This document shows positions 8,675 to 44,623 of a DNA stretch of 64,000 nucleotides, piece after piece (the first letter of the stretch is position 1; the number at the start of each line of letters is the position of its first letter). The notes below the pieces were generated by a model. The model was not told the DNA's origin. It made no database searches and saw only the letters and a program-made list of their open reading frames with translations. Both the position numbers and the translations under genes were made by a program. The stretch comes from a virus: UHGV virus genome UHGV-0272730; one strand, 5' to 3'.

Positions 8675-8750
8675 TGGAGAATCCGAAGGGACTCGAACCC
8701 TTATAAACCTGTTTTGCAGACAGGCACATAGCCATTTCTGTCACGGATTC
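8675..8750 (-). tRNA. tRNA-Cys (anticodon GCA)
   Basis: Cloverleaf parsed on reverse complement: acceptor GAATCCG/CGGATTC, anticodon arm CCTGT-CTGCAAA-ACAGG, T arm AAGGG-TTCGAGT-CCCTT, CCA encoded. Confidence 0.75.
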
Positions 8751-8754
8751 AAAT

Positions 8755-8847
8755 TGGAGGAAGATACCAGACTTGAACTGGTACACCGATTTCTCAGCTA
8801 CTGGCAGTTTAGCAAACTGCTCCCTTACCTTTTAGGGTTAATCTTCC
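8755..8847 (-). tRNA. tRNA-Ser (anticodon GCT), class II with long variable arm
   Basis: Acceptor GGAAGAT/ATCTTCC, anticodon arm GCAGT-TTGCTAA-ACTGC, about 21 nt variable arm, T arm ACCAG-TTCAAGT-CTGGT. Confidence 0.65.
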
Positions 8848-8848
8848 A

Positions 8849-9646
8849 TTATTTCTGTAATGCGTTCTTCATTTCTGGTGTTGCAATAGTGTCAATCACA
8901 CCAGTTTTACAAGCATCATCAAACCAGTCTGGTAAGATACCTGCTAAGAACCCATTGATATTCGTTTTAAGGTACTCTGCAATAAGAGCAGCTTCTTCTT
9001 CAATCATCTGCACAACTTCATCTGCATAAGCTGTAATTTTTGAAATACCTTCATTAATCTTACTAACAGCTTGCTCAGCTAAATCAGAAATAGTATCAAG
9101 ACCTTTGTCAATAGCATCTTGTAAGTCACTTAACACACCATTAACACTATCTAGTGCACTGTTAATCGTATCAATAGCTTTTTGACCATACTCTGTAGCA
9201 ACACCCATAATACCACTAAATGGTGTACAGCCAACTTGTTCACCTACTGCACCCATAACATTAGAGTAACCTTTTGCTACCTGCATACGTGATGAAAACT
9301 CATCAATGGACTTTTGACCATAGTCTGTTAAGGTCTTAGTAGTCGCTGTAGTGCTTGTAAGGCTTGTTGTAAAGCTGTTTAGAAGGACTGTTGTAAGTCC
9401 AGCAGCAACAAGTTTCTCCTTCATTGTAGGGTCTGTTACAGAGCTAATAGAACTTACAAGTGATGTAGAGGCAGCTACGGTTCCACCGAGAACTGCTGCA
9501 CCAGTAATAAGGGGATTGGAAAACCCTCTACCGGTTTTTAAGAGATTAAAAATCTCCTTACCTTGTTCTGTCATCTCTTTCATTAAGCACCTTTGAAATT
9601 GGTAGTCCAGTGGGATTTGAACCCTCTTCTCATGTTTTTCAGACAC
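8849..9646 (-). CDS. hypothetical protein embedded in tRNA array
   Basis: 265 aa ORF exactly filling the gap between two tRNAs; Ser/Thr/Ala-rich N-terminus and helical C-terminus. Confidence 0.45.
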   Translation of the reverse strand: MSEKHEKRVQIPLDYQFQRCLMKEMTEQGKEIFNLLKTGRGFSNPLITGAAVLGGTVAASTSLVSSISSVTDPTMKEKLVAAGLTTVLLNSFTTSLTSTTATTKTLTDYGQKSIDEFSSRMQVAKGYSNVMGAVGEQVGCTPFSGIMGVATEYGQKAIDTINSALDSVNGVLSDLQDAIDKGLDTISDLAEQAVSKINEGISKITAYADEVVQMIEEEAALIAEYLKTNINGFLAGILPDWFDDACKTGVIDTIATPEMKNALQK

Positions 9647-9676
9647 GCGCTTTAACCATATAAGCTACTTGGACTA
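9600..9676 (-). tRNA. tRNA-Phe (anticodon GAA), tentative
   Basis: Acceptor TAGTCCA/TGGACTA, anticodon arm CGTGT-CTGAAAA-ACATG, T loop TTCAAAT. Confidence 0.6.
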
Positions 9677-9681
9677 TAAAT

Positions 9682-9757
9682 TGGGGTGACCTACGGGATT
9701 TGAACCCGTATAGACCATGTTCACAGCATGGGTCATTACCATTTATGATAAGGCCAC
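9682..9757 (-). tRNA. tRNA-His (anticodon GTG)
   Basis: Anticodon arm CCATG-CTGTGAA-CATGG, T arm ACGGG-TTCAAAT-CCCGT, CCA encoded. Confidence 0.65.
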
Positions 9758-9788
9758 ATTTAAGGACTCTCGTAAGAATCCTTAGAAG

Positions 9789-9864
9789 TGGCAGCGGCAT
9801 AAGGATTTGAACCTTAATAGGACAGCTTCAGAGACTGTTGCATTGCCAGTTATGCTATACCGCT
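9789..9864 (-). tRNA. tRNA with anticodon CTG (Gln-type), tentative
   Basis: Acceptor AGCGGTA/TGCCGCT, anticodon arm ACAGT-CTCTGAA-GCTGT, T arm TAAGG-TTCAAAT-CCTTA, CCA encoded. Confidence 0.55.
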
Positions 9865-9869
9865 AAATT

Positions 9870-9948
9870 TGGTACTCCATATCGGATTCGAACCGATACA
9901 TAACACAGATTTTAAGTCTGGCCTCTCTGCCAATTGGAGTAATGGAGC
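9870..9948 (-). tRNA. tRNA with anticodon loop CTTAAAA (anticodon TAA, Leu-type) but short variable arm
   Basis: Acceptor GCTCCAT/ATGGAGT, T arm ATCGG-TTCGAAT-CCGAT; 79 nt, unusual for tRNA-Leu. Confidence 0.5.
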
Positions 9949-9950
9949 AT

Positions 9951-10026
9951 TGGCGGGGGATGTTGGAATTGAACCAACTTCTTCGATTTCAAAGACCGAG
10001 GTTTTAACCTTGTAAACTAATCCCCT
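9951..10026 (-). tRNA. tRNA-Gln (anticodon TTG), tentative
   Basis: Anticodon arm TCGGT-CTTTGAA-ATCGA, T arm GTTGG-TTCAATT-CCAAC, CCA encoded. Confidence 0.55.
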
Positions 10027-10034
10027 TTAAATCT

Positions 10035-10592
10035 TTACTTTCTCAGTGGATGAATAAAGAATGCCAACATAACTCTTTCCCTTGAGAATGCTCTTTCTTC
10101 TGGGACAACACTTTTTAGTTTCCATCCAATATAAATTCTCCAGTAAAACTGTTTACCAAAGACTTTAATTGATGGGATAAAGGCGAATAATCCCCAAGCA
10201 TTACTGTTCCACATTAGGAGGTAACCAGTCTGATTATCTTCAGGGTCAGAACTTACGTTGATATTACCTTTCCACTTAGTAACATCTTTTACATCTCTTC
10301 CTAATACATGGTAAGAGAAGTTATAAGCTTTGTTTCTCCAGAGCCATCCGACTCTTTGCATGTAGACGCCTAGTTTACCAATCCATCTAATATTAGCCCA
10401 TCTTTTAACGTGACCTTCATCACCATCAATTGGGTTGTCATATGTCTCCATCCATCTGAACCCGAAAGGTAAGTGTCCTTTCTTCTCACTGTAGAATGGA
10501 ACTACAAAAGGTGCTAAGATAACTGCTAAGATTGCTGCAAATGGCTCTAACAAAGCTAAGAAAATCCATGAAGCATACTTTAAGTATCTCAT
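10035..10592 (-). CDS. hypothetical membrane protein inside tRNA array
   Basis: 185 aa ORF with strongly hydrophobic N-terminus (WIFLALLEPFAAILAVILAPFVVPF) and W/R-rich remainder. Confidence 0.4.
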   Translation of the reverse strand: MRYLKYASWIFLALLEPFAAILAVILAPFVVPFYSEKKGHLPFGFRWMETYDNPIDGDEGHVKRWANIRWIGKLGVYMQRVGWLWRNKAYNFSYHVLGRDVKDVTKWKGNINVSSDPEDNQTGYLLMWNSNAWGLFAFIPSIKVFGKQFYWRIYIGWKLKSVVPEERAFSRERVMLAFFIHPLRK

Positions 10593-10831
10593 TGTCTAAT
10601 CCTCGTAAGGAGGTAAATGTTATTATTCGTTTCTAAACCTTCTGGTAAAACTGTCTCAAAAATAACACTCTTCAGATGTCTACCACCAAAACAATCACGT
10701 ATAAATCTTTCTACTCTAGCGGGGTCACATAAGTATCCCACTTTTAAGAAAATGTGGTGTTCAACACCAATGACCCTGACAAACTCAATACTCTCACAGT
10801 TTTCATGTTCAACTACTGTTAATGTTTGCAT
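10589..10831 (-). CDS. hypothetical protein
   Basis: 80 aa ORF overlapping downstream gene start by 4 nt. Confidence 0.35.
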   Translation of the reverse strand: MQTLTVVEHENCESIEFVRVIGVEHHIFLKVGYLCDPARVERFIRDCFGGRHLKSVIFETVLPEGLETNNNIYLLTRIRQ

Positions 10832-10848
10832 AGTATCACCTTTTTATC

Positions 10849-10924
10849 TGGCGCAGGATAAGGGATTCGAACCCCTATTAACAGCTTCGTAGACTGTTGC
10901 TCTTTCCATTTGAACTAATCCTGC
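10849..10924 (-). tRNA. tRNA-Arg (anticodon ACG)
   Basis: Acceptor GCAGGAT/ATCCTGC, D arm GTTC/GAGC, anticodon arm ACAGT-CTACGAA-GCTGT, T arm AGGGG-TTCGAAT-CCCTT, CCA encoded. Confidence 0.65.
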
Positions 10925-10929
10925 AAAAT

Positions 10930-11007
10930 TGGTGTTCCAAGACGGATTCGAACCGTCACTAATACAAGGTTTGAGCTTGCATCCTCTGCCAATTGGGATA
11001 CTGGAAC
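10930..11007 (-). tRNA. tRNA with anticodon loop CTCAAAC (anticodon CAA, Leu-type) but short variable arm
   Basis: Acceptor GTTCCAG/TTGGAAC, T arm GACGG-TTCGAAT-CCGTC; 78 nt. Confidence 0.5.
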
Positions 11008-11011
11008 ATGA

Positions 11012-11083
11012 TACTCACTAAAGGACTTGAACCTTTTTCTTCATCTTGTAAGGGTGATGTTTTACCATATAAACTAAGCGAGT
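11012..11083 (-). tRNA. tRNA-Val (anticodon TAC), tentative; CCA not encoded
   Basis: Acceptor pairs 7/7 with one G-U, anticodon arm TCACC-CTTACAA-GATGA, T arm AAAGG-TTCAAGT-CCTTT. Confidence 0.55.
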
Positions 11084-11179
11084 ATGAAAGAGGTCTGGAG
11101 TTGTGCCGCTAACTCAACTCCGTGGAATTTGTTACGGTCTTCAGTTGACTCAAAGCGGTCTTTCACTTGACCTCTGAAT

Positions 11180-11257
11180 TGGTGCTCCCACAAGGACTCG
11201 AACCCGCATCTCCATCCTTACAAGGGATGTGTAATAGCCAATTATACGAAAGCAGCA
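11180..11257 (-). tRNA. tRNA-like element with perfect Thr-type anticodon arm (TGT) but degenerate T and acceptor stems
   Basis: Anticodon arm CATCC-CTTGTAA-GGATG perfect; T stem GCGGG/CCTTG pairs poorly; 5' acceptor strand not complementary; abuts HNH gene stop at 11258. Confidence 0.3.
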
Positions 11258-11671
11258 TTAAACTTTTATGATACCAGCATGTACTTTTCTGTGACAGTTA
11301 GCGCACAAGACAATGCACTTTCTGATTTCATCTTTTAATCTTTTTGTGGAGTATGAATAAAGTGATGCAGGATTCAAATCTTTCTGGGAAGGGTCTGTAT
11401 GGTGTAAATCCAATGCAACTGGTTCTTTCTCACCACATATATGACATTTGCATAAAGCTTTGTACCTTCTAGCTAGAGTCTTGTTATACTCTCTCTTGAA
11501 GTTACGAGTGCTTTTAATAGCCTCTTTCCTTTTATCATTTGCTTGATAACTCTTTGCATCACGAAGTCTTGCACAGTCTTTGCATTGACTTTGAAGACCA
11601 TCTTTCTTGTTCTTATTCTTATGGAATAAGCTTTCATCTTTTGGTATTCTGCAAGTACTGCATATTTTCAT
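11258..11671 (-). CDS. HNH homing endonuclease
   Basis: 137 aa with Cys clusters and HNH core CHICGE...LDLHH...CANCH. Confidence 0.75.
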   Translation of the reverse strand: MKICSTCRIPKDESLFHKNKNKKDGLQSQCKDCARLRDAKSYQANDKRKEAIKSTRNFKREYNKTLARRYKALCKCHICGEKEPVALDLHHTDPSQKDLNPASLYSYSTKRLKDEIRKCIVLCANCHRKVHAGIIKV

Positions 11672-11685
11672 ATCACACCTTAATT

Positions 11686-11760
11686 TGGAGCATCCAGAGG
11701 GAATCGAACCCTCAACCTCAGTTTGGAAGACTGTAATTTTCCCGTTTAAACTATGGATGC
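11686..11760 (-). tRNA. tRNA-Gly (anticodon TCC)
   Basis: Acceptor TGGATGC/GCATCCA perfect, anticodon loop CTTCCAA, T arm GAGGG-TTCGATT-CCCTC, CCA encoded. Confidence 0.65.
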
Positions 11761-11766
11761 ACTAAT

Positions 11767-11842
11767 TGGTGGAGAAGCAGGGAATTGAACCCTGTACTTA
11801 AGTTTGCAAAACTTATGTTTTAACCATGTAAACTACATCCCC
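11767..11842 (-). tRNA. tRNA-Ala (anticodon TGC)
   Basis: Anticodon arm TAAGT-TTTGCAA-ACTTA perfect; G3-U70 wobble in acceptor stem (Ala identity element); T arm CAGGG-TTCAATT-CCCTG. Confidence 0.65.
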
Positions 11843-11848
11843 AATGTC

Positions 11849-11924
11849 TGGTACAGGTGGAGGGAATTGAACCCATCGTCTTACTGATTAAGAGTCAGCC
11901 GCATAACCATTTTGCTACACCTGC
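11849..11924 (-). tRNA. tRNA-Lys (anticodon CTT), tentative
   Basis: Anticodon arm GCTGA-CTCTTAA-TCAGT; close paralogue of tRNA at 13264-13339. Confidence 0.55.
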
Positions 11925-11931
11925 ATTAATT

Positions 11932-12009
11932 TGGTAGGAGACAAGGGATTCGAACCCTCAAACATCTCGTTCTAAGCGAGATAGGTTTACCAATTACCGT
12001 CAATCTCCC
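11932..12009 (-). tRNA. tRNA with anticodon loop CTTAGAA (anticodon TAG, Leu-type) but short variable arm
   Basis: Anticodon stem TCTCG/CGAGA perfect, T arm GAGGG-TTCGAAT-CCCTT; 78 nt. Confidence 0.5.
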
Positions 12010-12264
12010 ATTAAATCTTTTTAGAGAACTTCTAAGAACCTAAGCAACAAGGCTCCACAACAAGCTGTAATAACCTTAGAAGCCCTCTAAAAAGACCTAA
12101 ATAGGTCTTTGCATAGTCTTGTTTAATCCGGTGACTAGAACCTTTGGAGAGCTTGATATTATCTCTTCTCCGTGACACCTACTAGGTGCTTTGACAGTGT
12201 ACGACAATACACGAGGGATAAACCGACAATGCGAACAAGCATGGACGGAGTAAATCTTATTAGG
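12010..12264 (-). ncRNA. structured non-coding spacer in tRNA array (candidate stable RNA)
   Basis: 255 nt without convincing ORF; about 19 bp imperfect inverted repeat (12017-12036 vs 12074-12093) plus small hairpin AGACCTAAATAGGTCT. Confidence 0.3.
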
Positions 12265-12354
12265 CGGTAAGTAAAGGAGTCGAACCCTCACCGTATCTCT
12301 ACAGTGGCAACTGTTTTCAAGACAGTTTGGCTACCATTAGCCGCTACCTACCCC
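12265..12354 (-). tRNA. tRNA-Ser (anticodon TGA), class II
   Basis: Acceptor GGTAGGT/ACTTACC, anticodon arm ACTGT-CTTGAAA-ACAGT perfect, long variable arm, T loop TTCGACT. Confidence 0.6.
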
Positions 12355-12365
12355 TAATAAGACTT

Positions 12366-12448
12366 TGGCATGGGACGGAGGAGTTGAACCCCTTTGAAAC
12401 GGTTTTGGAGGCCGTTGCTCATGCCTTAGAGTCTTAACATCGTCCCAT
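12366..12448 (-). tRNA. tRNA-Trp (anticodon CCA), tentative, with enlarged D region
   Basis: Acceptor ATGGGAC/GTCCCAT perfect, anticodon arm ACGGC-CTCCAAA-ACCGT; 83 nt. Confidence 0.5.
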
Positions 12449-12460
12449 ATTATAATTCGA

Positions 12461-12489
12461 AGCTTACCCTGTTATCTCAACACTGTCAA
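12461..12489 (-). promoter_or_regulatory. candidate sigma70-like promoter upstream of tRNA at 12366-12448
   Basis: Minus strand TTGACA (12484-12489), 17 bp spacer, TAAGCT (12461-12466). Confidence 0.3.
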
Positions 12490-12590
12490 GCTTCTTCTCA
12501 GATTATTTACATGTTCTGGAAAACATGAGATACAGACCACCTCCTTACACGGAGACCCGATAAGGTCGTCTAAGCAATCTGCTAACTATT

Positions 12591-12667
12591 TGGTACACCC
12601 TACAGGATTCGAACCTGTAACTAACGATTTAGAAGACCGTTGCTCTATCCAATTGAACTAAGGGTGC
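12591..12667 (-). tRNA. tRNA-Arg (anticodon TCT)
   Basis: Acceptor GCACCCT/AGGGTGT, D arm GTTC/GAGC, anticodon arm ACGGT-CTTCTAA-ATCGT, T arm ACAGG-TTCGAAT-CCTGT, CCA encoded. Confidence 0.65.
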
Positions 12668-12987
12668 ATTAACATTTTAAAGGGTACTTATTGCATTTAA
12701 GCCAAGCCCCATAAGGGATACCCTTTAGAATGTTGCCCACCTTATTAATCATACCGTGGGCGAGTACGCCAAATTCTTTGATGAGGGATTGGAAGACCTC
12801 ACTGGTGTTTAGCCTATCAAGCTACTGCCAGAAAAACATTGTCGTTTGCATTTATTTTAAATTTTCAAAATAGACGCTACGCAACGAAAACTATTCAGAA
12901 TATGTACAACAAATTTCCCCACATTGTGTTACGTCTAACGCTCATGTATTGGTGTTTGAATTATACATATTATGAAGTGTTTTAGTT

Positions 12988-13016
12988 ACTATAAAGTAGT
13001 CACATCTCAATGTCAA
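12988..13016 (-). promoter_or_regulatory. candidate sigma70-like promoter within 360 nt tRNA spacer
   Basis: Minus strand TTGACA (13011-13016), 17 bp spacer, TATAGT (12988-12993). Confidence 0.4.
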
Positions 13017-13031
13017 CAACTTTATTGAAAT

Positions 13032-13107
13032 TGGTGCTGGTAGGTGGAATCGAACCACCGATGTTCCCTTATCAGGGGAGTGTTATAACCTTCTTAACTA
13101 TACCAGC
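13032..13107 (-). tRNA. tRNA-Ile (anticodon GAT)
   Basis: Acceptor GCTGGTA/TACCAGC, D arm GTTA/TAAC, anticodon loop CTGATAA, T arm GGTGG-TTCGATT-CCACC, CCA encoded. Confidence 0.65.
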
Positions 13108-13108
13108 T

Positions 13109-13185
13109 TGGAGGTTCAGATGGGAATCGAACCCACATTCATAGGGCTTATGAAACCCCTGCATTACCTTATCTGCGACTGAACC
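13109..13185 (-). tRNA. tRNA with anticodon CAT (Met, fMet or Ile2)
   Basis: Acceptor GGTTCAG/CTGAACC, anticodon arm GGGGT-TTCATAA-GCCCT, T loop TTCGATT, CCA encoded. Confidence 0.55.
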
Positions 13186-13263
13186 AGAATAAGTACCCTA
13201 GTTAGAGAAACTGTTGAGTGGGTGTTTCCAGCCGCGCAGGTGTTTCTCAGTTAAGGGTGAATT

Positions 13264-13339
13264 TGGTAGAAGTGGAGGGATTCGAACCCATCGCCTGTCA
13301 GATTAAAAGTCTGCCGCATCACCATTCTGCTACACTTCC
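13264..13339 (-). tRNA. tRNA-Lys (anticodon TTT)
   Basis: Acceptor GGAAGTG/CACTTCT, anticodon loop CTTTTAA, T loop TTCGAAT, CCA encoded. Confidence 0.6.
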
Positions 13340-13539
13340 ATTAAATTATCTTTGTAGATAAGCTACCCAGACTTGCTTAAGGTCTGTAGCGATGTGCCTT
13401 TTTGGGTTTAAATCTAGAATTTACCCTTTCACCCTTTGTGGTCGCATACTCACAGGTAAGCTTAATAACTTATCTACAAAGATAATTACCAGACCGTTGT
13501 TTATCATCTTAAGTGCTACCATTACACCAACTCGACATC

Positions 13540-13566
13540 TGCCGAGTGAAGGAATCGAACCTTCGC
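13540..13566 (-). other. tRNA-like 3' fragment (T arm plus acceptor strand only)
   Basis: GAAGG-TTCGATT-CCTTC T arm followed by ACTCGGC on the minus strand, but no complementary 5' acceptor strand or anticodon arm within about 100 nt. Confidence 0.3.
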
Positions 13567-13795
13567 CTTTTCTTTACCGAGAAATAGATTGTTTAAGTTT
13601 TGCTGTAAACGGTCTTCTGTAAATTTGTTGAGCCAGACCAAGTTTTAAATTTTTCAAAATTAAATTGGCTTGAAATTTTCATACGTTCTTGCTGTATTTG
13701 GTCTTCTGCTCCTTTAAAGGATACTCGTAAGAACCCTTTAAGGGAGGGGCTAAAATAGCCCTCTCAAACATCATTTTGAAATACTTATTATAATT

Positions 13796-13873
13796 TGGCG
13801 GTTACGAAGGGATTTGAACCCTCATCATCTCCCGTGACAGGGGAGTATTTTAACCAGATTAAACTACATAACC
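13796..13873 (-). tRNA. tRNA-Asp (anticodon GTC)
   Basis: Anticodon arm CTCCC-CTGTCAC-GGGAG perfect, T arm GAGGG-TTCAAAT-CCCTT, CCA encoded. Confidence 0.65.
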
Positions 13874-13879
13874 TTTATT

Positions 13880-13967
13880 TGGTGTGCCGTGTAGGAGTCG
13901 AACCTACCGAGTCTCAATGACAAGGGATTTACAGTCCCCACCGCTACCATCTACGGGATAACGACAC
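13880..13967 (-). tRNA. tRNA-Tyr (anticodon GTA), class II
   Basis: Acceptor GTGTCGT/ACGGCAC (one G-U), 3 bp D stem CCG/CGG, anticodon arm GGGGA-CTGTAAA-TCCCT, about 15 nt variable arm, T arm GTAGG-TTCGACT-CCTAC. Confidence 0.6.
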
Positions 13968-13976
13968 ATTTAAATT

Positions 13977-14053
13977 TGGCGGTTAGTCAGGGATTCGAAC
14001 CCTGTGCCATTCGCTTAACAGGCGACCGCACATACCTTATGTGCTTCCTAACC
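13977..14053 (-). tRNA. tRNA-Asn (anticodon GTT)
   Basis: D arm GCAC/GTGC, anticodon loop CTGTTAA, T arm CAGGG-TTCGAAT-CCCTG, CCA encoded. Confidence 0.6.
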
Positions 14054-14130
14054 TTAATACATTGCCAGACCGTGTTTTTTCTTTTATCCGCAAAAAGTAT
14101 TTTGTTGCTGAATACGGTCTTCTGCAAAAT

Positions 14131-14207
14131 TGGAGGCGGGTGCAGGAGTCGAACCTGCCGATACCATGCTAATGAGACATGTGAGACGCCCTTTCTCTAT
14201 ACCCGCA
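14131..14207 (-). tRNA. tRNA with anticodon CAT (Met-type; 1-72 mismatch hints at initiator)
   Basis: Anticodon arm CATGT-CTCATTA-GCATG, T arm GCAGG-TTCGACT-CCTGC, CCA encoded; first acceptor pair appears unpaired. Confidence 0.5.
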
Positions 14208-14298
14208 ATTCTTAATGACCAGACCAAATCTCTTCTTTGTCCGATTTACCTTCAGATGAATAAGATTAAGTTTGCTGTAATTGGTCTTCTGTCAAAAC

Positions 14299-14376
14299 TG
14301 GCGTTCCAGAAGGGATTTGAACCCTCAGATATCCACTTTGAAAGAGTGGTGACTTTACCATTTTGTCTACTGGAAC
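14299..14376 (-). tRNA. tRNA-Glu (anticodon TTC)
   Basis: Acceptor GTTCCAG/CTGGAAC perfect, anticodon arm CCACT-CTTTCAA-AGTGG perfect, CCA encoded. Confidence 0.65.
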
Positions 14377-14383
14377 ATTAATT

Positions 14384-14460
14384 TGGTCTCTGTTGGAGGA
14401 CTTGAACCTCCGGCCTTACCGCCCCAAACGGAACGCTCTACCAAGCTGAGCTAAACAGAG
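14384..14460 (-). tRNA. tRNA-Pro (anticodon TGG)
   Basis: Acceptor CTCTGTT/AACAGAG perfect, D arm GCTC/GAGC, anticodon loop TTTGGGG, T arm GGAGG-TTCAAGT-CCTCC, CCA encoded. Confidence 0.65.
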
Positions 14461-30918: not shown

Positions 30919-31208
30919 GGTGTTTCCTCTTTACGTGATACTTTGCCATTTACAGTTATCTCATAGGATTCTAATAAATCGCTTTTAGACTTTACAGGAC
31001 TTTTAAAAGTATCATCATAAATATTGACTTGCAATACAGGTTTTTTATACTCCCTGTAACTGTTCCATAAGCAAATCACTACACGACGGCCTTTGATTTT
31101 TCCGTGTAACCATTCCATAACATCATGACTATTCCTTGATGTTTCAATGAAATCAATTTTATTAAGTAACTTGCTTAAATTTTCACGGACTTTATTTGAT
31201 AATTTCAT
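30912..31208 (-). CDS. hypothetical early protein
   Basis: 98 aa ORF preceded by cassette. Confidence 0.45.
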   Translation of the reverse strand: MKLSNKVRENLSKLLNKIDFIETSRNSHDVMEWLHGKIKGRRVVICLWNSYREYKKPVLQVNIYDDTFKSPVKSKSDLLESYEITVNGKVSRKEETPC

Positions 31209-31300
31209 TTTAGAATCTCCTAGTTTAAGGGTTGATTTGAATAAAGCTCTTTATCTGGGGCTATCTTATCAGTCTGATAACCCCGTGTAAAGAAATCTAT

Positions 31301-31813
31301 TTAGTTCTTAAAGATATTCATCACTGAGTCTTTCAACGATTCCAAACGTTCTAATACTTCAGATTCTGCGTCTGCGTTGTTCACCTCTTCTTTTAGTCTA
31401 TCCTCTAAATCATCGCCGTCACGATAGCACCAATCGAAAGCATAACCAAGATAAAAACTTTCTAAAACCGTGCTACCGTTTGCATCCACAACTTTCGCGG
31501 CAAGGTTATACTCTGAAGCCTCTAAATCTCTTTCTAGTTCTTTCTGTAAGCTCGTGTAAGCCTCTTTCGATGGATTCTCACGGCCTTGTTTTGCATAGTC
31601 ACTTGAAAGCTGTTTAAGGCTGTAATGTAAAGGGATTGCATATTTAAATTCATTACGCTGACAGTTAGGATTTTTAATCGTCACACCGCCTCGATGGTCA
31701 TCTGTAAACTTCCAATTATCAAGATTATGGCTTGCTTCAAAGCAATTTACCGCTTCGTAGATAATAGTGAATTTTTCTTTTACAACTTCAAAGGTAGCGT
31801 CTACAGTTTTCAT
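31301..31813 (-). CDS. hypothetical early protein
   Basis: 170 aa ORF preceded by cassette. Confidence 0.45.
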   Translation of the reverse strand: MKTVDATFEVVKEKFTIIYEAVNCFEASHNLDNWKFTDDHRGGVTIKNPNCQRNEFKYAIPLHYSLKQLSSDYAKQGRENPSKEAYTSLQKELERDLEASEYNLAAKVVDANGSTVLESFYLGYAFDWCYRDGDDLEDRLKEEVNNADAESEVLERLESLKDSVMNIFKN

Positions 31814-31898
31814 TTTTGAATCTCCAGTTTAGGATTGAGTGGTAAAGCTCTTTATCTGGGGCTTAAGATATCAACTTTTAAGCCCCCTGTAAAGTACT

Positions 31899-32192
31899 TT
31901 ATTTGTTAATTTTCAGCTTTGCATAACTTCTCATTGTACGAATGGGGGATGTTAATGCTACGCGTCTAATATATGCCTTTTTCGTGTATACACTTGTCTT
32001 CCCGATAGTGTTTACACATGTAAAAAGGTTTATCGGTGAATTTTTTAACTTCAACTGCTTATCAACCTTCACGCCCCACCTTACAGCAGATTGTTTTCCG
32101 TTGTCAACCACTTTCCCGCATAACTTTTTAGCCATGATACGAGCGTCATCACGAGTCTTTGCGGTAATTACAACGTTTTTGATAATAGCCAT
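31899..32192 (-). CDS. hypothetical early protein (start set to ATG)
   Basis: Same cassette/start arrangement as 29733..30137. Confidence 0.45.
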   Translation of the reverse strand: MAIIKNVVITAKTRDDARIMAKKLCGKVVDNGKQSAVRWGVKVDKQLKLKNSPINLFTCVNTIGKTSVYTKKAYIRRVALTSPIRTMRSYAKLKINK

Positions 32193-32278
32193 TTTTAAGT
32201 TCTCCAATTTAGGATTTAGTGGTAAAGCTCTTTATCTGGGGCTTACTTTATCGAACTATAAGCCCCTTGTAAAGTACT

Positions 32279-32662
32279 TTATTTGTTAATTTTGAAGATA
32301 GTTACATAACCATCACTACCGATTATTTGAGACACTCCAGCTTTTTCTACTTTATAGCCCATATTTTCAAGATGATAAACAGCATCATCATAACCATATG
32401 CGCCACCCTGATAACGTCTCTTATCACATTTTATCAGGTTTTTACCACGTCCAGCAAGTGCATGTAAAATGGCTTTTTCACTTGAAAGAGTACCATCTAA
32501 CATGGTTGCCGTGTAATGGTTGATTCTATTCCCGTTTACATCATACTTAAAATTGAATGCGTGAACAATGATAATGTTACCTTTAAAATTTTCATCAAGT
32601 GACTTCTCCAGTGCGTTGCGAAAGTTGTCCTTGTTGATGAATTTAGGTGCACGATAAGCCAT
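32279..32662 (-). CDS. hypothetical early protein (first gene of early block)
   Basis: 127 aa ORF; preceded by cassette and candidate promoter. Confidence 0.45.
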   Translation of the reverse strand: MAYRAPKFINKDNFRNALEKSLDENFKGNIIIVHAFNFKYDVNGNRINHYTATMLDGTLSSEKAILHALAGRGKNLIKCDKRRYQGGAYGYDDAVYHLENMGYKVEKAGVSQIIGSDGYVTIFKINK

Positions 32663-32725
32663 TTTTGAATCTCCAGTTTAGGACTTTATTTAGTGGGGAA
32701 GGTCATTCCCTCCCCGTTGATGCAA

Positions 32726-32754
32726 ATATTAGATAACCACACTCAAAGAGTCAA
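32726..32754 (-). promoter_or_regulatory. candidate strong sigma70-type promoter for early gene block
   Basis: Minus strand TTGACT (32749-32754), 17 bp spacer, TAATAT (32726-32731). Confidence 0.45.
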
Positions 32755-32920
32755 GAAAAATTTTAAAAATATTTTTGGCAAAACTGTAATGAAACGGGCG
32801 CACACGACTACCACAAAACAGAACACAAATCAAGAATTATTTTTCAATCCGCTACAAATTTTTCTCTTGACTTTTAGGGAGAGGGGGAGAGGGGTTGGTC
32901 TGGCTCTCTATAAAAACCTA

Positions 32921-33065
32921 CCTGCACAATTCTAAAATGATTTTTCTTGCCCGACCTGAGCGGGGTCTGCACGTTTTGAAAATGATTTTTCTATCCGGCT
33001 ATGAGATTTTTTGGGATATCTGTACAGACCCCTACAGATACCTGCACAAATTGAAAATGAAAAAG
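32921..33065. repeat. three direct repeats of a roughly 27 bp element
   Basis: CCTGCACAATTCTAAAATGATTTTTCT (32921-32947), TCTGCACGTTTTGAAAATGATTTTTCT (32967-32993), CCTGCACAAATTGAAAATGAAAAAG (33041-33065). Confidence 0.55.
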
Positions 33066-33138
33066 GCCGCCTTACCTTAAATTTTTCAATGGGTTAGGCA
33101 GCCTTCTTAGATGATTTGTAGATACTATGAAGTGCTAA

Positions 33139-33918
33139 TCAGCTTATGAATTTGAACTTTTTAGAATACAGCAAGTAGTGAACTTCATCCTGATTTGTTG
33201 TGTAGATGTATGCTGCTGGGTAGTTATCAAAGAACACCCCTTCATATCTTCCAAACGGGTCAACTGGGAACATTTCACTGTTACACATACCCATCTCACT
33301 AACCAGAGGGTAACTAACCTCAACCTTGCCATCAACAAGCTGATAGAGGGTAACTTGATTAGTCTTCCCGTCACTTAGCACGACACCATCATAGAATTGT
33401 GGTGCTGAGGTAGCATACTTAGGGGTAACTACACTTGCCATTGCTTCATCATAGACGTAGAGGTACACATCAACGTTATACATAACACTATTAATGAGGC
33501 TTTTCACAGCTTGTGCATCTAAACCGCCTATACCTGCCCCAATCATGGGTAAACCAATCTTACGAATGTTGTGCAGCCAGCAAAATTTACGGAGTTTTTC
33601 TAGTGACTCCACTAAGTATCGGTATGATGCACACTTCCCAACATCCAACTGTGTATATAGGTTAAAAATGTAACCATACTCCGTTCGAGCATGTGACACC
33701 TCACCAACCATCTGGTATCCGATATCATGAGCACTGTAGCCAAACTTTTTATGGAATTTCCGGTCAGCTTCTTCAGCTTTTGGGAAAATCTTAGCAATTT
33801 TTTGAGCGATTCCAGCACCCATGAGGTTACGACAGTTGCAACCATGAGCAATTAACTCAATATCTGTGTTTTTGAAGGCAGCCAGTAAGTTACCTTTTAC
33901 AACTTTTACAATACCCAT
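33139..33918 (-). CDS. macrodomain protein (TARG1/DarG-like ADP-ribosyl hydrolase fold) with C-terminal domain of unknown function
   Basis: 259 aa; N-terminal 150 aa carries IAHGCNCRNLMGAGIAQKIAKIFP and GLPMIGAGIGGLD, matching TARG1/OARD1-type macrodomain signatures as I recall them; C-terminal 110 aa unassigned. Confidence 0.55.
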   Translation of the reverse strand: MGIVKVVKGNLLAAFKNTDIELIAHGCNCRNLMGAGIAQKIAKIFPKAEEADRKFHKKFGYSAHDIGYQMVGEVSHARTEYGYIFNLYTQLDVGKCASYRYLVESLEKLRKFCWLHNIRKIGLPMIGAGIGGLDAQAVKSLINSVMYNVDVYLYVYDEAMASVVTPKYATSAPQFYDGVVLSDGKTNQVTLYQLVDGKVEVSYPLVSEMGMCNSEMFPVDPFGRYEGVFFDNYPAAYIYTTNQDEVHYLLYSKKFKFIS

Positions 33919-34119
33919 TTAACATCTCTCCCAAGATTCTTTATCTTCTGAAGGTTTTACACGTTGTCCTTCGTGGTCTACCCAGATACACCCGCAACCT
34001 TCACAGATTACTGGCATTGCATAGCCAGCTTTAAAGTCATCTTCAGTGATAAGACCTTTTAAGTCACCTGTATCACGTCCGAACATTTCGATAGAACAGT
34101 CTTTGCAGAAGTCAGCCAT
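33919..34119 (-). CDS. small Cys-rich (zinc-ribbon-like) protein
   Basis: 66 aa with CKDC...CEGCGC; start abuts macrodomain gene. Confidence 0.4.
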   Translation of the reverse strand: MADFCKDCSIEMFGRDTGDLKGLITEDDFKAGYAMPVICEGCGCIWVDHEGQRVKPSEDKESWERC

Positions 34120-41422: not shown

Positions 41423-43204
41423 TTAAAGCTGCTTGTCAATATTATTTCGAATATCACCAAGAGTTGTGTAACCAAACTGCTCAGAGTCACTAAAGACTAA
41501 ACGTAAAGCACAAGCTGGGTGGTCAAGTACATCTGCAAAACTCTGGAATCCATAGCCATCTACAGCTTTCAGCTTATCACCATCCCACATAGGTGCTACA
41601 CCACCAAAGGCAGATTTCTTAACACCACTATCTGTTTTAGGGTCTTTTGCAAGCATAATCTCTTTACCACCAATGCTTGCAAGAGTTGCTTTGACAGCAA
41701 ATGCAAAGGTGTCACGAGTCATGTACTGGTAAGTGTAAGAGCCTACACCAAACACTACGTTAGAGCTTGCAAAACCCATTTCATACAGACGCTTCAGGAT
41801 TTCGTTTGCACGTTCCAGAGTGATAGAGTCACCATAGATAAGGCCGATATGCTCATCCAGTACCTTAAACCCTTTAGAGTTAATAGTTCCACCAAAGATG
41901 TTGTACAGTGTCTTAATAGCTCCATCAATCTCAGCTACAGGACGTGTTACAACGTTTGCAGAACCAACCATATAAGCATTTTTCAACATCACTGTATCAG
42001 CAACTTCAAAGTCTTCTCTGTCAACAACCATTTCGTAGCCTTCTGACAGTAGCCATCCAGCAATACCATAGTTGATGTTCTCAAGCTTCATGTTCAGAAC
42101 AGCATTCAACATTGTGTCACTGGCTTCCAGCTTGCTTAGGTGCTCGTAATAAGCCTTCTTAGCACATTCTAAGTGGATTGCTTTATAACCTGTGACAATA
42201 TGTACAGGGTCTCCAGAGTCAGGGCGAATTACCAGTTTGCCATCACGTTCCATAATTTCTTTACGAAGTGCTGGTAAGATTTCTGACACAGTTCTCCAGA
42301 AGTTATAAGTATCTGAAACAATGCTTGCAATACCTGTTGGGTAAGTTTCTGTTAAGAAACGACGGAAGGTTTGTAACTCACCTTTAAAGCGTCTTTCTTC
42401 TTCAATCAACTCATTACCACCTTCCCAAGCAATGTTTGCACACATTACAGAGTGCTCAGTGGCTGGTACAGAACTACCAATATCAGAGATTGGGTAGGAC
42501 TGTCCATAGATTCGTTTAGCCGTGTATACAGCAGGGAAGCTATCAGTCCCTTTAAAGCTGGTTAAGTGACCTACAGCGTTAAATGCGTCATCAGTAAAGC
42601 CGGACATACCACGCATAGCAAAATCATGGCACTGATAAGGTAAATGTAAGTCATTGTCACAAGTAAGGTCAGCCCACTTCTTACAGATGCGTTTGTAATG
42701 CAATGCAATAGTTGCAATGGTGCAAGCCTTCCAAATTTCAGCAGAGAAAGCATCTTCCAGATAACCTGCTACCCAATGAAAACCTGAAACAGTGTTCTGA
42801 AAGACAATCATCGGGACACGCATTGGAACAACTGTGCCTTCTTCTACAGCGTATACTTCAACTGGTAGATAACCTAAGTCGTGAAGTGCTTCCCAATGCT
42901 CTCGACCGATAGCATCTTTACCCAGAACACCATTCATGACTTCTAAGATTTCATCAATGGCTTCTTTTTTATCACGTTCAAAGAAAGTGGCATTCCAGTG
43001 GTCTATCAAGTAATCTTTAACAAAACGTTGAATACCAAAAGCCACTACACCGTCAATTGCTAAGGGGCTGTTAAACCATTTATCACTGCGTGGTGTCAGG
43101 TTCAACATAAGATATTGCGTAGCATCTGGATACTGATATATATGTGATGCCTTGTAAGCATCTGCATTAAGACCTGCTGTTACTGCGTAAAGTGACTTAC
43201 TCAT
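41423..43204 (-). CDS. nicotinamide phosphoribosyltransferase-like (NAMPT/NadV family) enzyme
   Basis: 593 aa; NAPRTase-family motifs SFKGTDS, VIRPDSGDP, IYGDSIT; longer than typical NAMPT. Confidence 0.65.
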   Translation of the reverse strand: MSKSLYAVTAGLNADAYKASHIYQYPDATQYLMLNLTPRSDKWFNSPLAIDGVVAFGIQRFVKDYLIDHWNATFFERDKKEAIDEILEVMNGVLGKDAIGREHWEALHDLGYLPVEVYAVEEGTVVPMRVPMIVFQNTVSGFHWVAGYLEDAFSAEIWKACTIATIALHYKRICKKWADLTCDNDLHLPYQCHDFAMRGMSGFTDDAFNAVGHLTSFKGTDSFPAVYTAKRIYGQSYPISDIGSSVPATEHSVMCANIAWEGGNELIEEERRFKGELQTFRRFLTETYPTGIASIVSDTYNFWRTVSEILPALRKEIMERDGKLVIRPDSGDPVHIVTGYKAIHLECAKKAYYEHLSKLEASDTMLNAVLNMKLENINYGIAGWLLSEGYEMVVDREDFEVADTVMLKNAYMVGSANVVTRPVAEIDGAIKTLYNIFGGTINSKGFKVLDEHIGLIYGDSITLERANEILKRLYEMGFASSNVVFGVGSYTYQYMTRDTFAFAVKATLASIGGKEIMLAKDPKTDSGVKKSAFGGVAPMWDGDKLKAVDGYGFQSFADVLDHPACALRLVFSDSEQFGYTTLGDIRNNIDKQL

Positions 43205-43720: not shown

Positions 43721-44623
43721 CTAATCAATGGTTGCTACAGTCACTTGACCGTAATGTGTTAAGCCACGGTCTTTAGCTTCACCTAAAGTGTTTGTAGTGT
43801 AGATATGGTCAATACCATTGTCAAGTAAGCTTTCAACACCTTTAGAGAAAATGCCATGAGTTACATAGAGTTCCACACGTTTTGCACCTGCTTCACGAAG
43901 ATGTTTAGCTGCTTCTATGAAGGTTCGACCGCCATCACAGATATCGTCGAGAATCATAACAGTTTTATCGGTCAAATCAACATCATCAAGGATTCGCATA
44001 CCAGTAATTTCACCAGTCTTAAGGTTACGCATTTTAGACATTGTGATATATGGTTTATCCACCTCTTTAGCAGTCTCTTCAGTCTTCTTAGCTGCACCTG
44101 CATCTGGGGCTACCAAGAAATCAATGCGTGGGTCACTTGCAAAGTGTGCTGCTACATCTTTTTGCTTCATGCCCTGAAAGCACTTAAATAAGTTTTCTGC
44201 AACATTGCTGTGAGGGTCAAGAGCACATACTGCATCAAAGCCCATTGCATTAACGAGGTTGGCAAAAGCTTTCAGTGCTGCTGAATCACCTTTGAACATA
44301 TGTCGGTCATATCGAGCATTCGGTAAGAACCCGAAAACAACGGTTTTCATCGCTGATTTATGTGGAACAAGACTGTCAACGGCATCCTTAGCCAAAGCTA
44401 ATGCAAACAGTGTATCTTTATCATATCCCTGCACAGTAAGTATAACATTGTCAATCTTACCAGCATTACGCTCAGTAAACTTAACAAAATCTTCAGAGAA
44501 GTTTCCACCAATTTCTCCAGATGGGAATTGGATGATATTAAATTTTTCTGTGTGGAAGAATTTCTCTTGTGCGGTGACAACGACTTCAATAACAGTTTTC
44601 ATAGTTTTCTCTCTCTCAATCAA
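43721..44623 (-). CDS. ribose-phosphate pyrophosphokinase-like (PRPP synthetase family) enzyme
   Basis: 300 aa; NARYDR (Prs YARQDR-like) and PRTase motif ILDDICDGGRT. Confidence 0.65.
   Translation of the reverse strand: MIEREKTMKTVIEVVVTAQEKFFHTEKFNIIQFPSGEIGGNFSEDFVKFTERNAGKIDNVILTVQGYDKDTLFALALAKDAVDSLVPHKSAMKTVVFGFLPNARYDRHMFKGDSAALKAFANLVNAMGFDAVCALDPHSNVAENLFKCFQGMKQKDVAAHFASDPRIDFLVAPDAGAAKKTEETAKEVDKPYITMSKMRNLKTGEITGMRILDDVDLTDKTVMILDDICDGGRTFIEAAKHLREAGAKRVELYVTHGIFSKGVESLLDNGIDHIYTTNTLGEAKDRGLTHYGQVTVATID

What the first reader, a model, noticed from the sequence alone, without database searches (positions are those of the whole stretch)
33139..33918. TARG1/DarG-like macrodomain fused to an unknown C-terminal domain
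The N-terminal 150 aa carry signatures I recognise from TARG1/OARD1-type macrodomains (HGCNC..MGAGIA and GLPMIGAGIGGLD), the fold used by DarG antitoxins to remove ADP-ribose from DNA. A phage copy could reverse defence-associated ADP-ribosylation (DarT-type DNA modification or protein ADP-ribosylation). The C-terminal 110 aa (YDGVVLSDGKTNQVTLYQLVDGKVEVSYPL...) has no motif I can place. A small zinc-ribbon ORF (33919-34119) is translationally coupled upstream.
Basis: partly seen in the sequence, partly recalled or inferred. Interest (0 to 1): 0.7.

Follow-up and report, generated by a model that had tools for sequence, protein, structure and literature searches.

The report
Phage anti-DarT macrodomain with orphan tail
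This Felix O1-like phage gene encodes an ADP-ribose-removing enzyme of the kind recently shown in phage T4 to defeat the bacterial DarTG2 defence, here carrying an extra, fast-swapping tail domain with no known relative.

Summary
Window 33139-33918 (-) encodes a 259-aa protein in a Felixounavirus genome. Residues 1-157 form a macrodomain: it passes Pfam's Macro cutoff, the AF2 model is confident, and the top fold matches are TARG1 and DarG. Its closest characterised relative is T4 Tk.4, renamed AdfM in 2025 after a knockout made T4 sensitive to DarTG2. The phage anti-DarT idea is therefore already published for this family; for this protein it rests on homology only. Like T4 AdfM, it keeps the active-site Asn (N28) but has an invariant Gln (Q90) where TARG1, DarG and PhiKZ AdfM have the catalytic Lys. 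TARG1 Asp125 is Gly. It is therefore not a canonical TARG1 or DarG. Residues ~172-259 form a confidently predicted β-rich domain with no sequence or fold relative. It occurs only in Ounavirinae-like phages, always fused to this macrodomain, and is unrelated to DarG's DarT-binding domain. The new finding is that this locus is exchanged by recombination. The whole gene is a diverged cassette in Felixounavirus, and the tail core alone is swapped between near-identical phages while under purifying selection. The upstream Cys-rich ORF abuts the start codon but is not a conserved partner. Verdict: a new variant of a known kind, of moderate interest.

The parts
33139..33918 (-). Complete CDS (259 aa plus stop): macrodomain fused to an orphan C-terminal domain
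   Evidence: ORF list and sequence; PHROG 335 over the full length at E=1e-85; AF2 mean pLDDT 87.3, pTM 0.85
33448..33918 (-). Macrodomain, residues 1-157 (T4 Tk.4/AdfM-type; TARG1/DarG/Poa1p-like clade)
   Evidence: Pfam Macro at 28.9 bits, above the cutoff of 22; profile vs TARG1 at E=7e-14; Foldseek TARG1 E=3.5e-9 with TM 0.78, and TaqDarG E=1.8e-8; PADLOC DarG E=2.9e-16; 34% identity to T4 Tk.4
33805..33846 (-). ADP-ribose-binding loop 1, H25-G-C-N28-C-R-N-L-M-G-A-G-I-A38. N28 aligns with DarG N22 and PhiKZ AdfM N23; H25 aligns with Poa1p H23 and TARG1 H32.
   Evidence: Alignments; residues invariant across 21 homologs
33649..33663 (-). Invariant N-L-Y-T-Q motif (residues 86-90). Q90 occupies the position of the catalytic Lys (TARG1 K84, DarG K80, PhiKZ AdfM K78).
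   Evidence: HMMER alignments; MAFFT alignment A3; T4 AdfM has the same NLYTQ
33517..33555 (-). Diphosphate-binding loop 2, G122-L-P-M-I-G-A-G-I-G131-G-L-D134. G131 occupies the position of TARG1 D125.
33142..33405 (-). Orphan C-terminal domain (residues ~172-259): six or seven β-strands plus a terminal helix. It starts at the conserved P173-x-x-F/Y-D-G178 junction.
32987..33918 (-). Diverged allelic cassette relative to the common Felixounavirus allele: the whole macro gene plus 153 nt downstream, terminator included
   Evidence: Sliding DNA identity is 95-97% up to 33921, 38-70% from 33920 to 32987, and 93-98% from 32986 onward. Only 13 phage records carry this allele at 95% identity or more; all the rest are below 60%.
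33050..33108 (-). Terminator-like hairpin (13-bp outer stem) followed by a U-tract, ending the transcription unit after the macro gene
   Evidence: RNA fold -27.4 kcal/mol, z=-2.9 against shuffles. The simple consensus scan did not flag it because of its long loop.
33919..34119 (-). 66-aa Cys-rich ORF (C5xxC8 ... C39xxC42xC44) whose stop codon abuts the macro ATG. It is a neighbour, not a demonstrated component.
   Evidence: PHROG 2210, unknown function, E=3e-41; adjacency is not conserved outside Felixounavirus

Best explanation
The gene encodes the Felixounavirus counterpart of the phage anti-DarT factor AdfM. AdfM is a macrodomain ADP-ribosyl-glycohydrolase that strips the ADP-ribose which the host DarT2 toxin attaches to thymidines in phage ssDNA, so that replication and packaging can proceed in DarTG2-carrying hosts. 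Shown here: the N-terminal 157 residues are a macrodomain of the TARG1/DarG/Poa1p clade, they share the T4 Tk.4/AdfM signature motifs, and both ADP-ribose-binding loops and the active-site Asn are invariant. Inferred: the substrate and the anti-DarT2 role, by homology to T4 AdfM (genetics) and PhiKZ AdfM (biochemistry). The chemistry must differ in detail from TARG1 and DarG, because the catalytic Lys is replaced by an invariant Gln, as in T4 AdfM. The additional C-terminal β-rich domain is a folded, selected module specific to this lineage, and it is exchanged between phages by recombination. My reading is that it acts as a specificity or targeting module, binding a variable partner such as the host toxin or a phage or host replication component. 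That step is conjecture.
For: Macrodomain identity. The best curated profiles are DarG: PADLOC E=2.9e-16 and NCBIfam antitoxin_DarG E=2.3e-15. Homology to T4 Tk.4: 34-36% identity and the shared motifs HGCNC, NLYTQ and P-x-IGAGIG; both have PHROG 335 as best family. T4 Tk.4 is AdfM and is required against DarTG2. PhiKZ AdfM de-ADP-ribosylates T-ADPr ssDNA, and its N23A mutant is inactive; the equivalent N28 is invariant here. Strong purifying selection acts on the macro domain (dN/dS about 0.05). The locus behaves like an arms-race gene: a cassette bounded at the gene itself in Felixounavirus, and a mosaic C-terminal domain. The C-terminal domain is functional: pLDDT about 90 and dN/dS about 0.17 inside the swapped patch. 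There is no DarT or ADP-ribosyltransferase partner in the window, so the enzyme acts on a modification made by something else.
Against: No experiment exists for this protein or for any Felixounavirus, and no paper in the library links the two. Q90 replaces the Lys that is essential in TARG1 and DarG, and G131 replaces TARG1 D125. For T4 AdfM, which has the same Gln, enzymatic removal is only assumed in the preprint. The window protein is only 21% identical to the biochemically characterised PhiKZ AdfM. PHROG 335 is broad, and genuine DarG also falls in it, so family membership does not fix the substrate. The N-terminal motif (HxCNC) is shared with the Poa1p ADP-ribose-1''-phosphatase. A published survey argues that most phage macrodomains act on small ADP-ribose derivatives (PMC9503650). 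The role of the C-terminal domain is unsupported by any homology.
Confidence: 0.55

Rival explanations
1. It processes small-molecule ADP-ribose derivatives, for example as an ADP-ribose-1''-phosphate phosphatase or O-acetyl-ADP-ribose deacetylase, or by degrading an ADP-ribose-based immune signal or toxin. In this view it works alongside the phage's NAD+ salvage and RNA-repair genes rather than acting on DNA.
For: The HxCNC...GxGIA N-terminal motif matches Poa1p at E=1e-5, and Foldseek gives Poa1p TM 0.72. Database annotations read 'phosphatase', 'Poa1p-like' or 'O-acetyl-ADP-ribose deacetylase'. The same leftward gene block encodes polynucleotide kinase, NAMPT, ribose-phosphate pyrophosphokinase and an 'NAD synthetase'. 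[quoted passage not shown] The Lys-to-Gln change departs from the DNA and protein glycohydrolases.
Against: The closest characterised homolog, T4 Tk.4, has a DarTG2-specific phenotype. The sequence match to Poa1p covers only the first ~60 residues, whereas TARG1 and DarG align over the whole domain. The annotations are transferred by homology and were never tested.
Confidence: 0.2
2. It reverses ADP-ribosylation of proteins or RNA, imposed by other host defence ADP-ribosyltransferases or by a phage-encoded one, rather than DarT2 marks on DNA.
For: TARG1, the top structural and profile hit, is a protein (Glu/Asp-linked) ADP-ribosyl hydrolase. Macrodomains are versatile in substrate (PMC9503650). 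The divergent alleles and the swapped C-terminal domain could reflect different macromolecular targets.
Against: The TARG1 catalytic pair K84/D125 is absent. No ADP-ribosyltransferase gene is seen among the neighbouring ORFs or in the annotation of the syntenic 45 kb of phage BPS17L1. The T4 homolog's only reported phenotype is against DarTG2.
Confidence: 0.15
3. It is a non-catalytic ADP-ribose binder (a reader or sponge). The Lys-to-Gln change would have inactivated hydrolysis, and the C-terminal domain would supply the effector or scaffold function.
For: Q90 and G131 replace the catalytic residues of TARG1 and DarG. Some GenBank records call it a 'high-affinity ADP-ribose binding module'.
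Against: Q90 and the whole NLYTQ motif are invariant, and N28 is retained, which points to a conserved active site rather than decay. T4 AdfM has the same Gln and is functional in vivo against an enzyme that modifies DNA catalytically, which a stoichiometric binder would counter poorly.
Confidence: 0.07

Closest known systems
T4 Tk.4 = AdfM (anti-DarT factor Macrodomain; HIDEN-SEQ preprint 10.1101/2025.11.20.689424)
   Same: Same macrodomain sub-clade: 34-36% identity and the shared motifs HGCNC, NLYTQ (Gln at the catalytic-Lys position) and P-x-IGAGIG. Both have PHROG 335 as best family. Both are encoded by lytic enterobacterial myoviruses with no DarT partner gene.
   Different: T4 AdfM is a stand-alone protein of about 155 aa. 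The window protein carries an extra ~100-aa orphan domain. T4's small downstream genes are unrelated to that domain. Function has been shown for T4 only.
PhiKZ gp104 = AdfM (Morgan et al., Cell Rep 2026, PMC13309987)
   Same: A phage macrodomain with the DarG-like fold. The active-site Asn is conserved (N23 in PhiKZ, N28 here).
   Different: Only 21% identical. PhiKZ AdfM keeps the catalytic Lys (K78), has no C-terminal domain and is imported into the phage nucleus.
DarG antitoxin of DarTG2 (T. aquaticus 5M31/5M3E, M. tuberculosis 5M3I; NCBIfam NF048014)
   Same: Best-scoring curated profile family, with a similar macro fold (TM about 0.77). The overall layout, macrodomain plus a C-terminal domain, is the same.
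   Different: The C-terminal domains are unrelated (hhalign probability 0.1%; only the macro half of the profile matched). There is no adjacent DarT. The catalytic Lys is Gln here. The score of 56.7 bits is far below the equivalog cutoff of 250.
Human TARG1/OARD1 (4J5Q/4J5R/4J5S)
   Same: Top sequence-profile and Foldseek hit: E=7e-14 and TM 0.78.
   Different: The catalytic residues K84 and D125 are Q90 and G131 here. TARG1 is a eukaryotic protein de-ADP-ribosylase with no extra domain.
Yeast Poa1p ADP-ribose-1''-phosphate phosphatase (6LFQ-6LFU)
   Same: Shares the N-terminal H-x-C-N-C...G-x-G-I-A motif (E=1e-5); Foldseek TM about 0.7. This match is the source of the 'phosphatase' and 'Poa1p-like' annotations.
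   Different: Sequence similarity is confined to the first ~60 residues. The substrate is a small metabolite.

Membership tests
Macro domain superfamily (Pfam PF01661) | Profile match above the curated gathering score | tested here: met
   28.9 bits against a cutoff of 22, residues 25-140
Macro domain superfamily (Pfam PF01661) | α/β/α macro fold | tested here: met
   AF2 pLDDT 87, pTM 0.85. All of the top 50 Foldseek PDB hits are macrodomains or designs built on one, with TM 0.7-0.79 to the target.
Macro domain superfamily (Pfam PF01661) | Glycine-rich ADP-ribose and diphosphate-binding loops | tested here: met
   MGAGIA (residues 33-38) and IGAGIGG (residues 126-132) are invariant or nearly so across 21 homologs
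TARG1/OARD1-type glycohydrolase | Catalytic Lys84 and Asp125 | tested here: not met
   Q90 and G131 occupy these positions in three independent alignments
DarG antitoxin (NCBIfam NF048014 equivalog) | Whole-protein score above the equivalog cutoff | tested here: not met
   56.7 bits against a cutoff of 250; only profile positions 2-153 of 338 matched
DarG antitoxin (NCBIfam NF048014 equivalog) | Active-site Asn (N22) and Lys (K80) | tested here: not met
   The Asn is present (N28), but the Lys is replaced by Q90 (catalytic residues as named in PMC13309987)
DarG antitoxin (NCBIfam NF048014 equivalog) | C-terminal DarT-binding domain | tested here: not met
   hhalign of the C-terminal profile against the C-terminus of a genuine DarG gives probability 0.1%. 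The second half of the DarG profiles is not matched.
DarG antitoxin (NCBIfam NF048014 equivalog) | Adjacent DarT (DUF4433) toxin gene | tested here: not met
   tblastn with DarT finds nothing in the 64-kb window, and the neighbouring ORFs have no Pfam hits
AdfM (phage anti-DarT factor, T4 Tk.4 type) | Homology to T4 Tk.4 with shared signature motifs | tested here: met
   tblastn to T4 at E=3e-14, 34% identity; HGCNC, NLYTQ and IGAGIG are shared; both have PHROG 335 as best family
AdfM (phage anti-DarT factor, T4 Tk.4 type) | Protects the phage against DarTG2 | not testable with these tools
   Needs plaque assays. Shown only for T4 and for PhiKZ and PhiPA3.
AdfM (phage anti-DarT factor, T4 Tk.4 type) | Hydrolyses thymidine-linked ADP-ribose on ssDNA | not testable with these tools
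   Shown biochemically only for PhiKZ AdfM
AdfM (phage anti-DarT factor, T4 Tk.4 type) | Single-domain architecture (about 155-162 aa) | tested here: not met
   259 aa, with an additional folded domain at residues ~172-259
Poa1p-like ADP-ribose-1''-phosphatase | N-terminal His-containing motif (Poa1p H23) with full-length similarity | tested here: inconclusive
   H25 aligns with Poa1p H23, but the sequence match covers only residues 4-60. Foldseek TM is 0.68-0.72, lower than for TARG1 and DarG. Activity is not testable here.

The most novel reading that the evidence does not exclude
The orphan C-terminal domain is a partner-binding specificity module, for example one that binds and blocks the host DarT2 toxin itself. 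That would make this protein a convergent, two-pronged mimic of DarG: an enzymatic eraser plus a stoichiometric toxin binder, built from an unrelated fold. On this reading, phages swap tail variants by recombination to keep up with divergent host toxins.
Probability: 0.15. Interest if true: 0.65.

Novelty: new variant of a known kind. Interest (0 to 1): 0.42.

Why it matters
Phage macrodomains were recognised as anti-DarTG2 factors only in 2025-2026, and only as single-domain proteins. This locus extends the family to Felix O1-like phages, which are widely used as Salmonella and E. coli biocontrol and therapy agents. There the enzyme carries an additional, selected, recombinationally exchanged domain of unknown fold. 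If that domain sets target specificity, allele typing at this locus could predict which DarTG-carrying hosts a therapeutic Felixounavirus can infect. The invariant Lys-to-Gln change shared with T4 AdfM also raises a question. The Lys thought essential for DarG/TARG1-type catalysis is missing from a clade that works in vivo, so how is thymidine-linked ADP-ribose removed? That question can be tested directly by mutagenesis.

Tried and rejected
1. C-terminal domain as a diverged DarG C-terminal (DarT-binding) domain: rejected. hhalign probability is 0.1%, and the second half of the DarG profiles is unmatched.

3. C-terminal domain as a free-standing or otherwise-fused domain elsewhere: rejected. 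The exhaustive profile search found only macro fusions. P0035 is a truncated gene call of the same allele. The long multi-stretch hits are repeat proteins (a retroelement polyprotein, a PQQ-type β-propeller).

4. A T4 counterpart encoded as a separate small gene downstream of tk.4: rejected.

5. The hypervariable patch as DGR or targeted hypermutation: rejected. Synonymous sites are saturated, most differences fall at third codon positions, and there is no adenine bias.

6. The Zn-ribbon ORF as an obligate partner: rejected. It is two genes away in L006, replaced by an unrelated CxxC protein in L008, and absent from L009 and T4.

7. My first estimate of the cassette boundary (inside the gene at about codon 48) was an artefact of blastn extension. 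Sliding identity places it at the start codon.

8. A DarT or other partner gene nearby: none found.

Full report
**Observation.** The window is a Felixounavirus (Felix O1-like myovirus) genome. It is 98.4% identical to Escherichia phage ECML-1 and about 96% identical to Salmonella phages BPS17L1 and pSJ21 over the 4 kb tested. The ORF at 33139..33918 on the minus strand encodes 259 aa, with the quoted motifs at residues 25-38 (HGCNCRNLMGAGIA) and 122-134 (GLPMIGAGIGGLD). It lies in a long leftward gene block: rIIA, rIIB, lysin, polynucleotide kinase, spanins, several small ORFs, then this gene. A strong hairpin plus U-tract follows it at 33050-33108 (-27.4 kcal/mol, z=-2.9). The upstream 66-aa Cys-rich ORF (33919..34119) ends in a TAA that directly abuts the macro ATG, with GGGAGA about 8 nt upstream.

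**The N-terminal domain is a macrodomain of the TARG1/DarG/Poa1p clade.**
- Pfam Macro is matched above its gathering score (28.9 against 22 bits).
- The best PDB sequence matches are TARG1 (E=5e-8 for the single sequence, 7e-14 with a 21-sequence profile), M. tuberculosis DarG (4e-10) and T. aquaticus DarG (3e-8).
- The best curated profiles are DarG: PADLOC at 2.9e-16 and NCBIfam antitoxin_DarG at 2.3e-15. In both, only the macro half of the profile is matched, and the 56.7-bit score is far below the equivalog cutoff of 250.
- An AF2 model built on 21 homologs is confident (mean pLDDT 87.3, pTM 0.85). Its top Foldseek PDB hits are TARG1 (E=3.5e-9, TM 0.78), TaqDarG (1.8e-8) and Poa1p.

**The family is already characterised.** tblastn finds the macro domain in 2748 phage records. 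These include T4, where the homolog is Tk.4 ('contains A1pp phosphatase motif'). A 2025 preprint found tk.4 as the single T4 gene depleted on a DarTG2 host. A clean knockout sensitised T4 to DarTG2, and the gene was renamed adfM; enzymatic removal of ADP-ribose from DNA was proposed but not shown (10.1101/2025.11.20.689424). Independently, PhiKZ gp104 was also named AdfM. It removes thymidine-linked ADP-ribose from ssDNA in vitro, its N23A mutant is inactive, and it protects chimalliviruses against DarTG2 (PMC13309987). The window protein is 34-36% identical to T4 AdfM and shares its three signature motifs: HGCNC, NLYTQ and P-x-IGAGIG. It is only 21% identical to PhiKZ AdfM. All of them, and a genuine Burkholderia DarG taken from a DarT-DarG operon, have PHROG 335 as best family. 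That family is therefore broad and does not fix the substrate. No paper in the library links Felixounavirus with DarTG or AdfM.

**Catalytic residues.** Three independent alignments agree.
- N28 aligns with DarG N22 and PhiKZ AdfM N23.
- The catalytic Lys (TARG1 K84, DarG K80, PhiKZ AdfM K78) is replaced by Q90. This Gln is invariant within the NLYTQ motif in all 21 two-domain homologs and is also present in T4 AdfM.
- TARG1 D125 corresponds to G131.
- H25 is shared with Poa1p H23 and TARG1 H32.

The protein therefore fails the defining-residue tests for TARG1 and DarG. It belongs to a Gln-bearing phage clade that is nevertheless functional in vivo in T4. How that clade catalyses hydrolysis is unknown.

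**The C-terminal domain is an orphan.** Residues ~172-259 are predicted at pLDDT of about 90, both in the full model and in a domain-only model. The fold is six or seven β-strands plus a terminal helix. Searches returned nothing:
- no Pfam family;
- no PDB sequence match;
- in BFVD, only its own SUSP2 ortholog;
- no relation to DarG's C-terminal domain (hhalign probability 0.1%);
- no relation to T4's small genes downstream of tk.4.

An exhaustive profile search of 1.84 billion representative proteins found only about five genuine clusters. All are macro fusions apart from one truncated gene call, and the remaining hits were repeat-protein artefacts. Every divergent homolog whose context I examined sits at the same syntenic position (rIIB, lysin, PNK, small ORFs, Macro) in phages of about 85 kb. 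The two-domain protein is thus an ortholog group restricted to Ounavirinae-like phages. The only strictly conserved feature of the tail is the junction motif P173-x-x-F/Y-D-G178. Its charge varies widely between alleles (pI 4.5-10.2), and the window allele is acidic (pI 4.5, net charge -5). That argues against a generic DNA-binding role.

**What is new: recombinational exchange at this locus.**
- *Whole-gene cassette.* Against the common Felixounavirus allele (O157 typing phage 11 / wV8 type), DNA identity is 95-97% up to position 33921. It drops to 38-70% exactly at the macro start codon and recovers to 93-98% at 32986. The diverged cassette is therefore the gene plus its terminator. Only 13 phage records carry the window allele at 95% identity or more; all others are below 60%. 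Amino-acid identity between the two alleles is 51-60% in the macro domain and 22% in the tail.
- *Faster tail divergence.* Across all homolog pairs the tail diverges much faster than the macro domain.
- *Tail-core swap.* In the most informative pair (contigs L011 and L012), flanks and macro domain are 98-100% identical in DNA. Codons ~185-245 of the tail fall to 56-76% identity, and identity then returns to 98-100%. Inside the patch dS is saturated (about 1.9, against 0.06 in the macro domain) and dN/dS is about 0.17. Differences fall mostly at third codon positions, with no adenine bias.

This pattern is a recombinational import from a diverged lineage, not hypermutation or DGR activity. The tail is under purifying selection, so it is a functional, exchangeable module. 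Such mosaicism is typical of genes at the phage-host interface.

**The small Cys-rich ORF.** It is 100% identical and abutting in both Felixounavirus allele backgrounds. In L006 it is 71% identical but two genes away. In L008 an unrelated 63-aa CxxC...CxxC ORF overlaps the macro start instead. It is absent from L009 and T4. Translational coupling is plausible from the geometry, but a functional partnership is not supported.

**Mechanism.** The most likely function (confidence about 0.55) is AdfM-like removal of DarT2-installed ADP-ribose from phage ssDNA. Shown here: the fold, the clade, the conserved binding loops and Asn, and purifying selection. Inferred: the substrate, and the role of the tail as a specificity or partner-binding module. 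The rivals are:
- processing of small ADP-ribose derivatives, supported by the Poa1p-like N-terminal motif, the nearby PNK and NAD+ salvage genes and the argument of PMC9503650;
- reversal of protein or RNA ADP-ribosylation;
- a non-catalytic ADP-ribose binder.

**Verdict.** The central idea is now published for homologs, and the macro domain is already annotated in GenBank records of this phage group. The residual novelty is the orphan, recombinationally exchanged C-terminal domain and the allelic cassette. I rate it a new variant of a known kind, with interest 0.42.

Noticed in passing
window 41423-43204 (-) and 43721-44623 (-): By synteny with BPS17L1 gp027 and gp028, these encode nicotinamide phosphoribosyltransferase and ribose-phosphate pyrophosphokinase. 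An 'NAD synthetase' (gp049) lies further along the same leftward block. Together they look like an NAD+-reconstitution set, so this phage may invest in several NAD/ADP-ribose counter-defences.
   Followed up: partly
window 8675-14460 (-): A cluster of 26 tRNA genes covering most amino acids, including two tRNA-Met, two Gln, two Lys, two Arg, two Ser and three Leu.
   Followed up: no
window 32190-32295, 31808-31913, 31203-31302, 32657-32722: Repeated intergenic elements of about 65-105 bp lie between the small minus-strand genes. They match many intergenic sites in other Felixounavirus loci at 76-97% identity and are probably repeated promoter/terminator units of the early region.
   Followed up: no
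L008 3810-4001 (Logan SRR31860690 contig): In a divergent relative, an unrelated 63-aa CxxC...CxxC mini-protein overlaps the start of the macro gene, at the position where Felixounavirus has its 66-aa Cys-rich ORF. This could be convergent pairing with a small zinc-ribbon protein, or coincidence.
   Followed up: partly
L011 1390-1575 vs L012 1460-1645: Two metagenomic phage contigs are 98-100% identical over about 1.7 kb, except for a patch of about 180 nt (56-76% identity) inside the C-terminal domain of the macro protein. This is a very short recombination tract with conserved anchors (PRKFDGAI and DIRKDLY).
   Followed up: yes
L006 8715-8846 and L007 6544-6675: An ocr-like gene (PF08684, anti-restriction DNA mimic) lies about 4 kb downstream of the macro gene in a divergent Ounavirinae-like phage. 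This suggests that the region collects anti-defence genes.
   Followed up: no
window 32693-32935 (+): A small opposite-strand ORF (80 aa, GTG start) lies in the 476-nt gap downstream of the macro gene. It is annotated as a hypothetical protein in BPS17L1 (gp012), and typing phage 11 also carries an opposite-strand ORF in this gap. It has no Pfam hit.
   Followed up: partly
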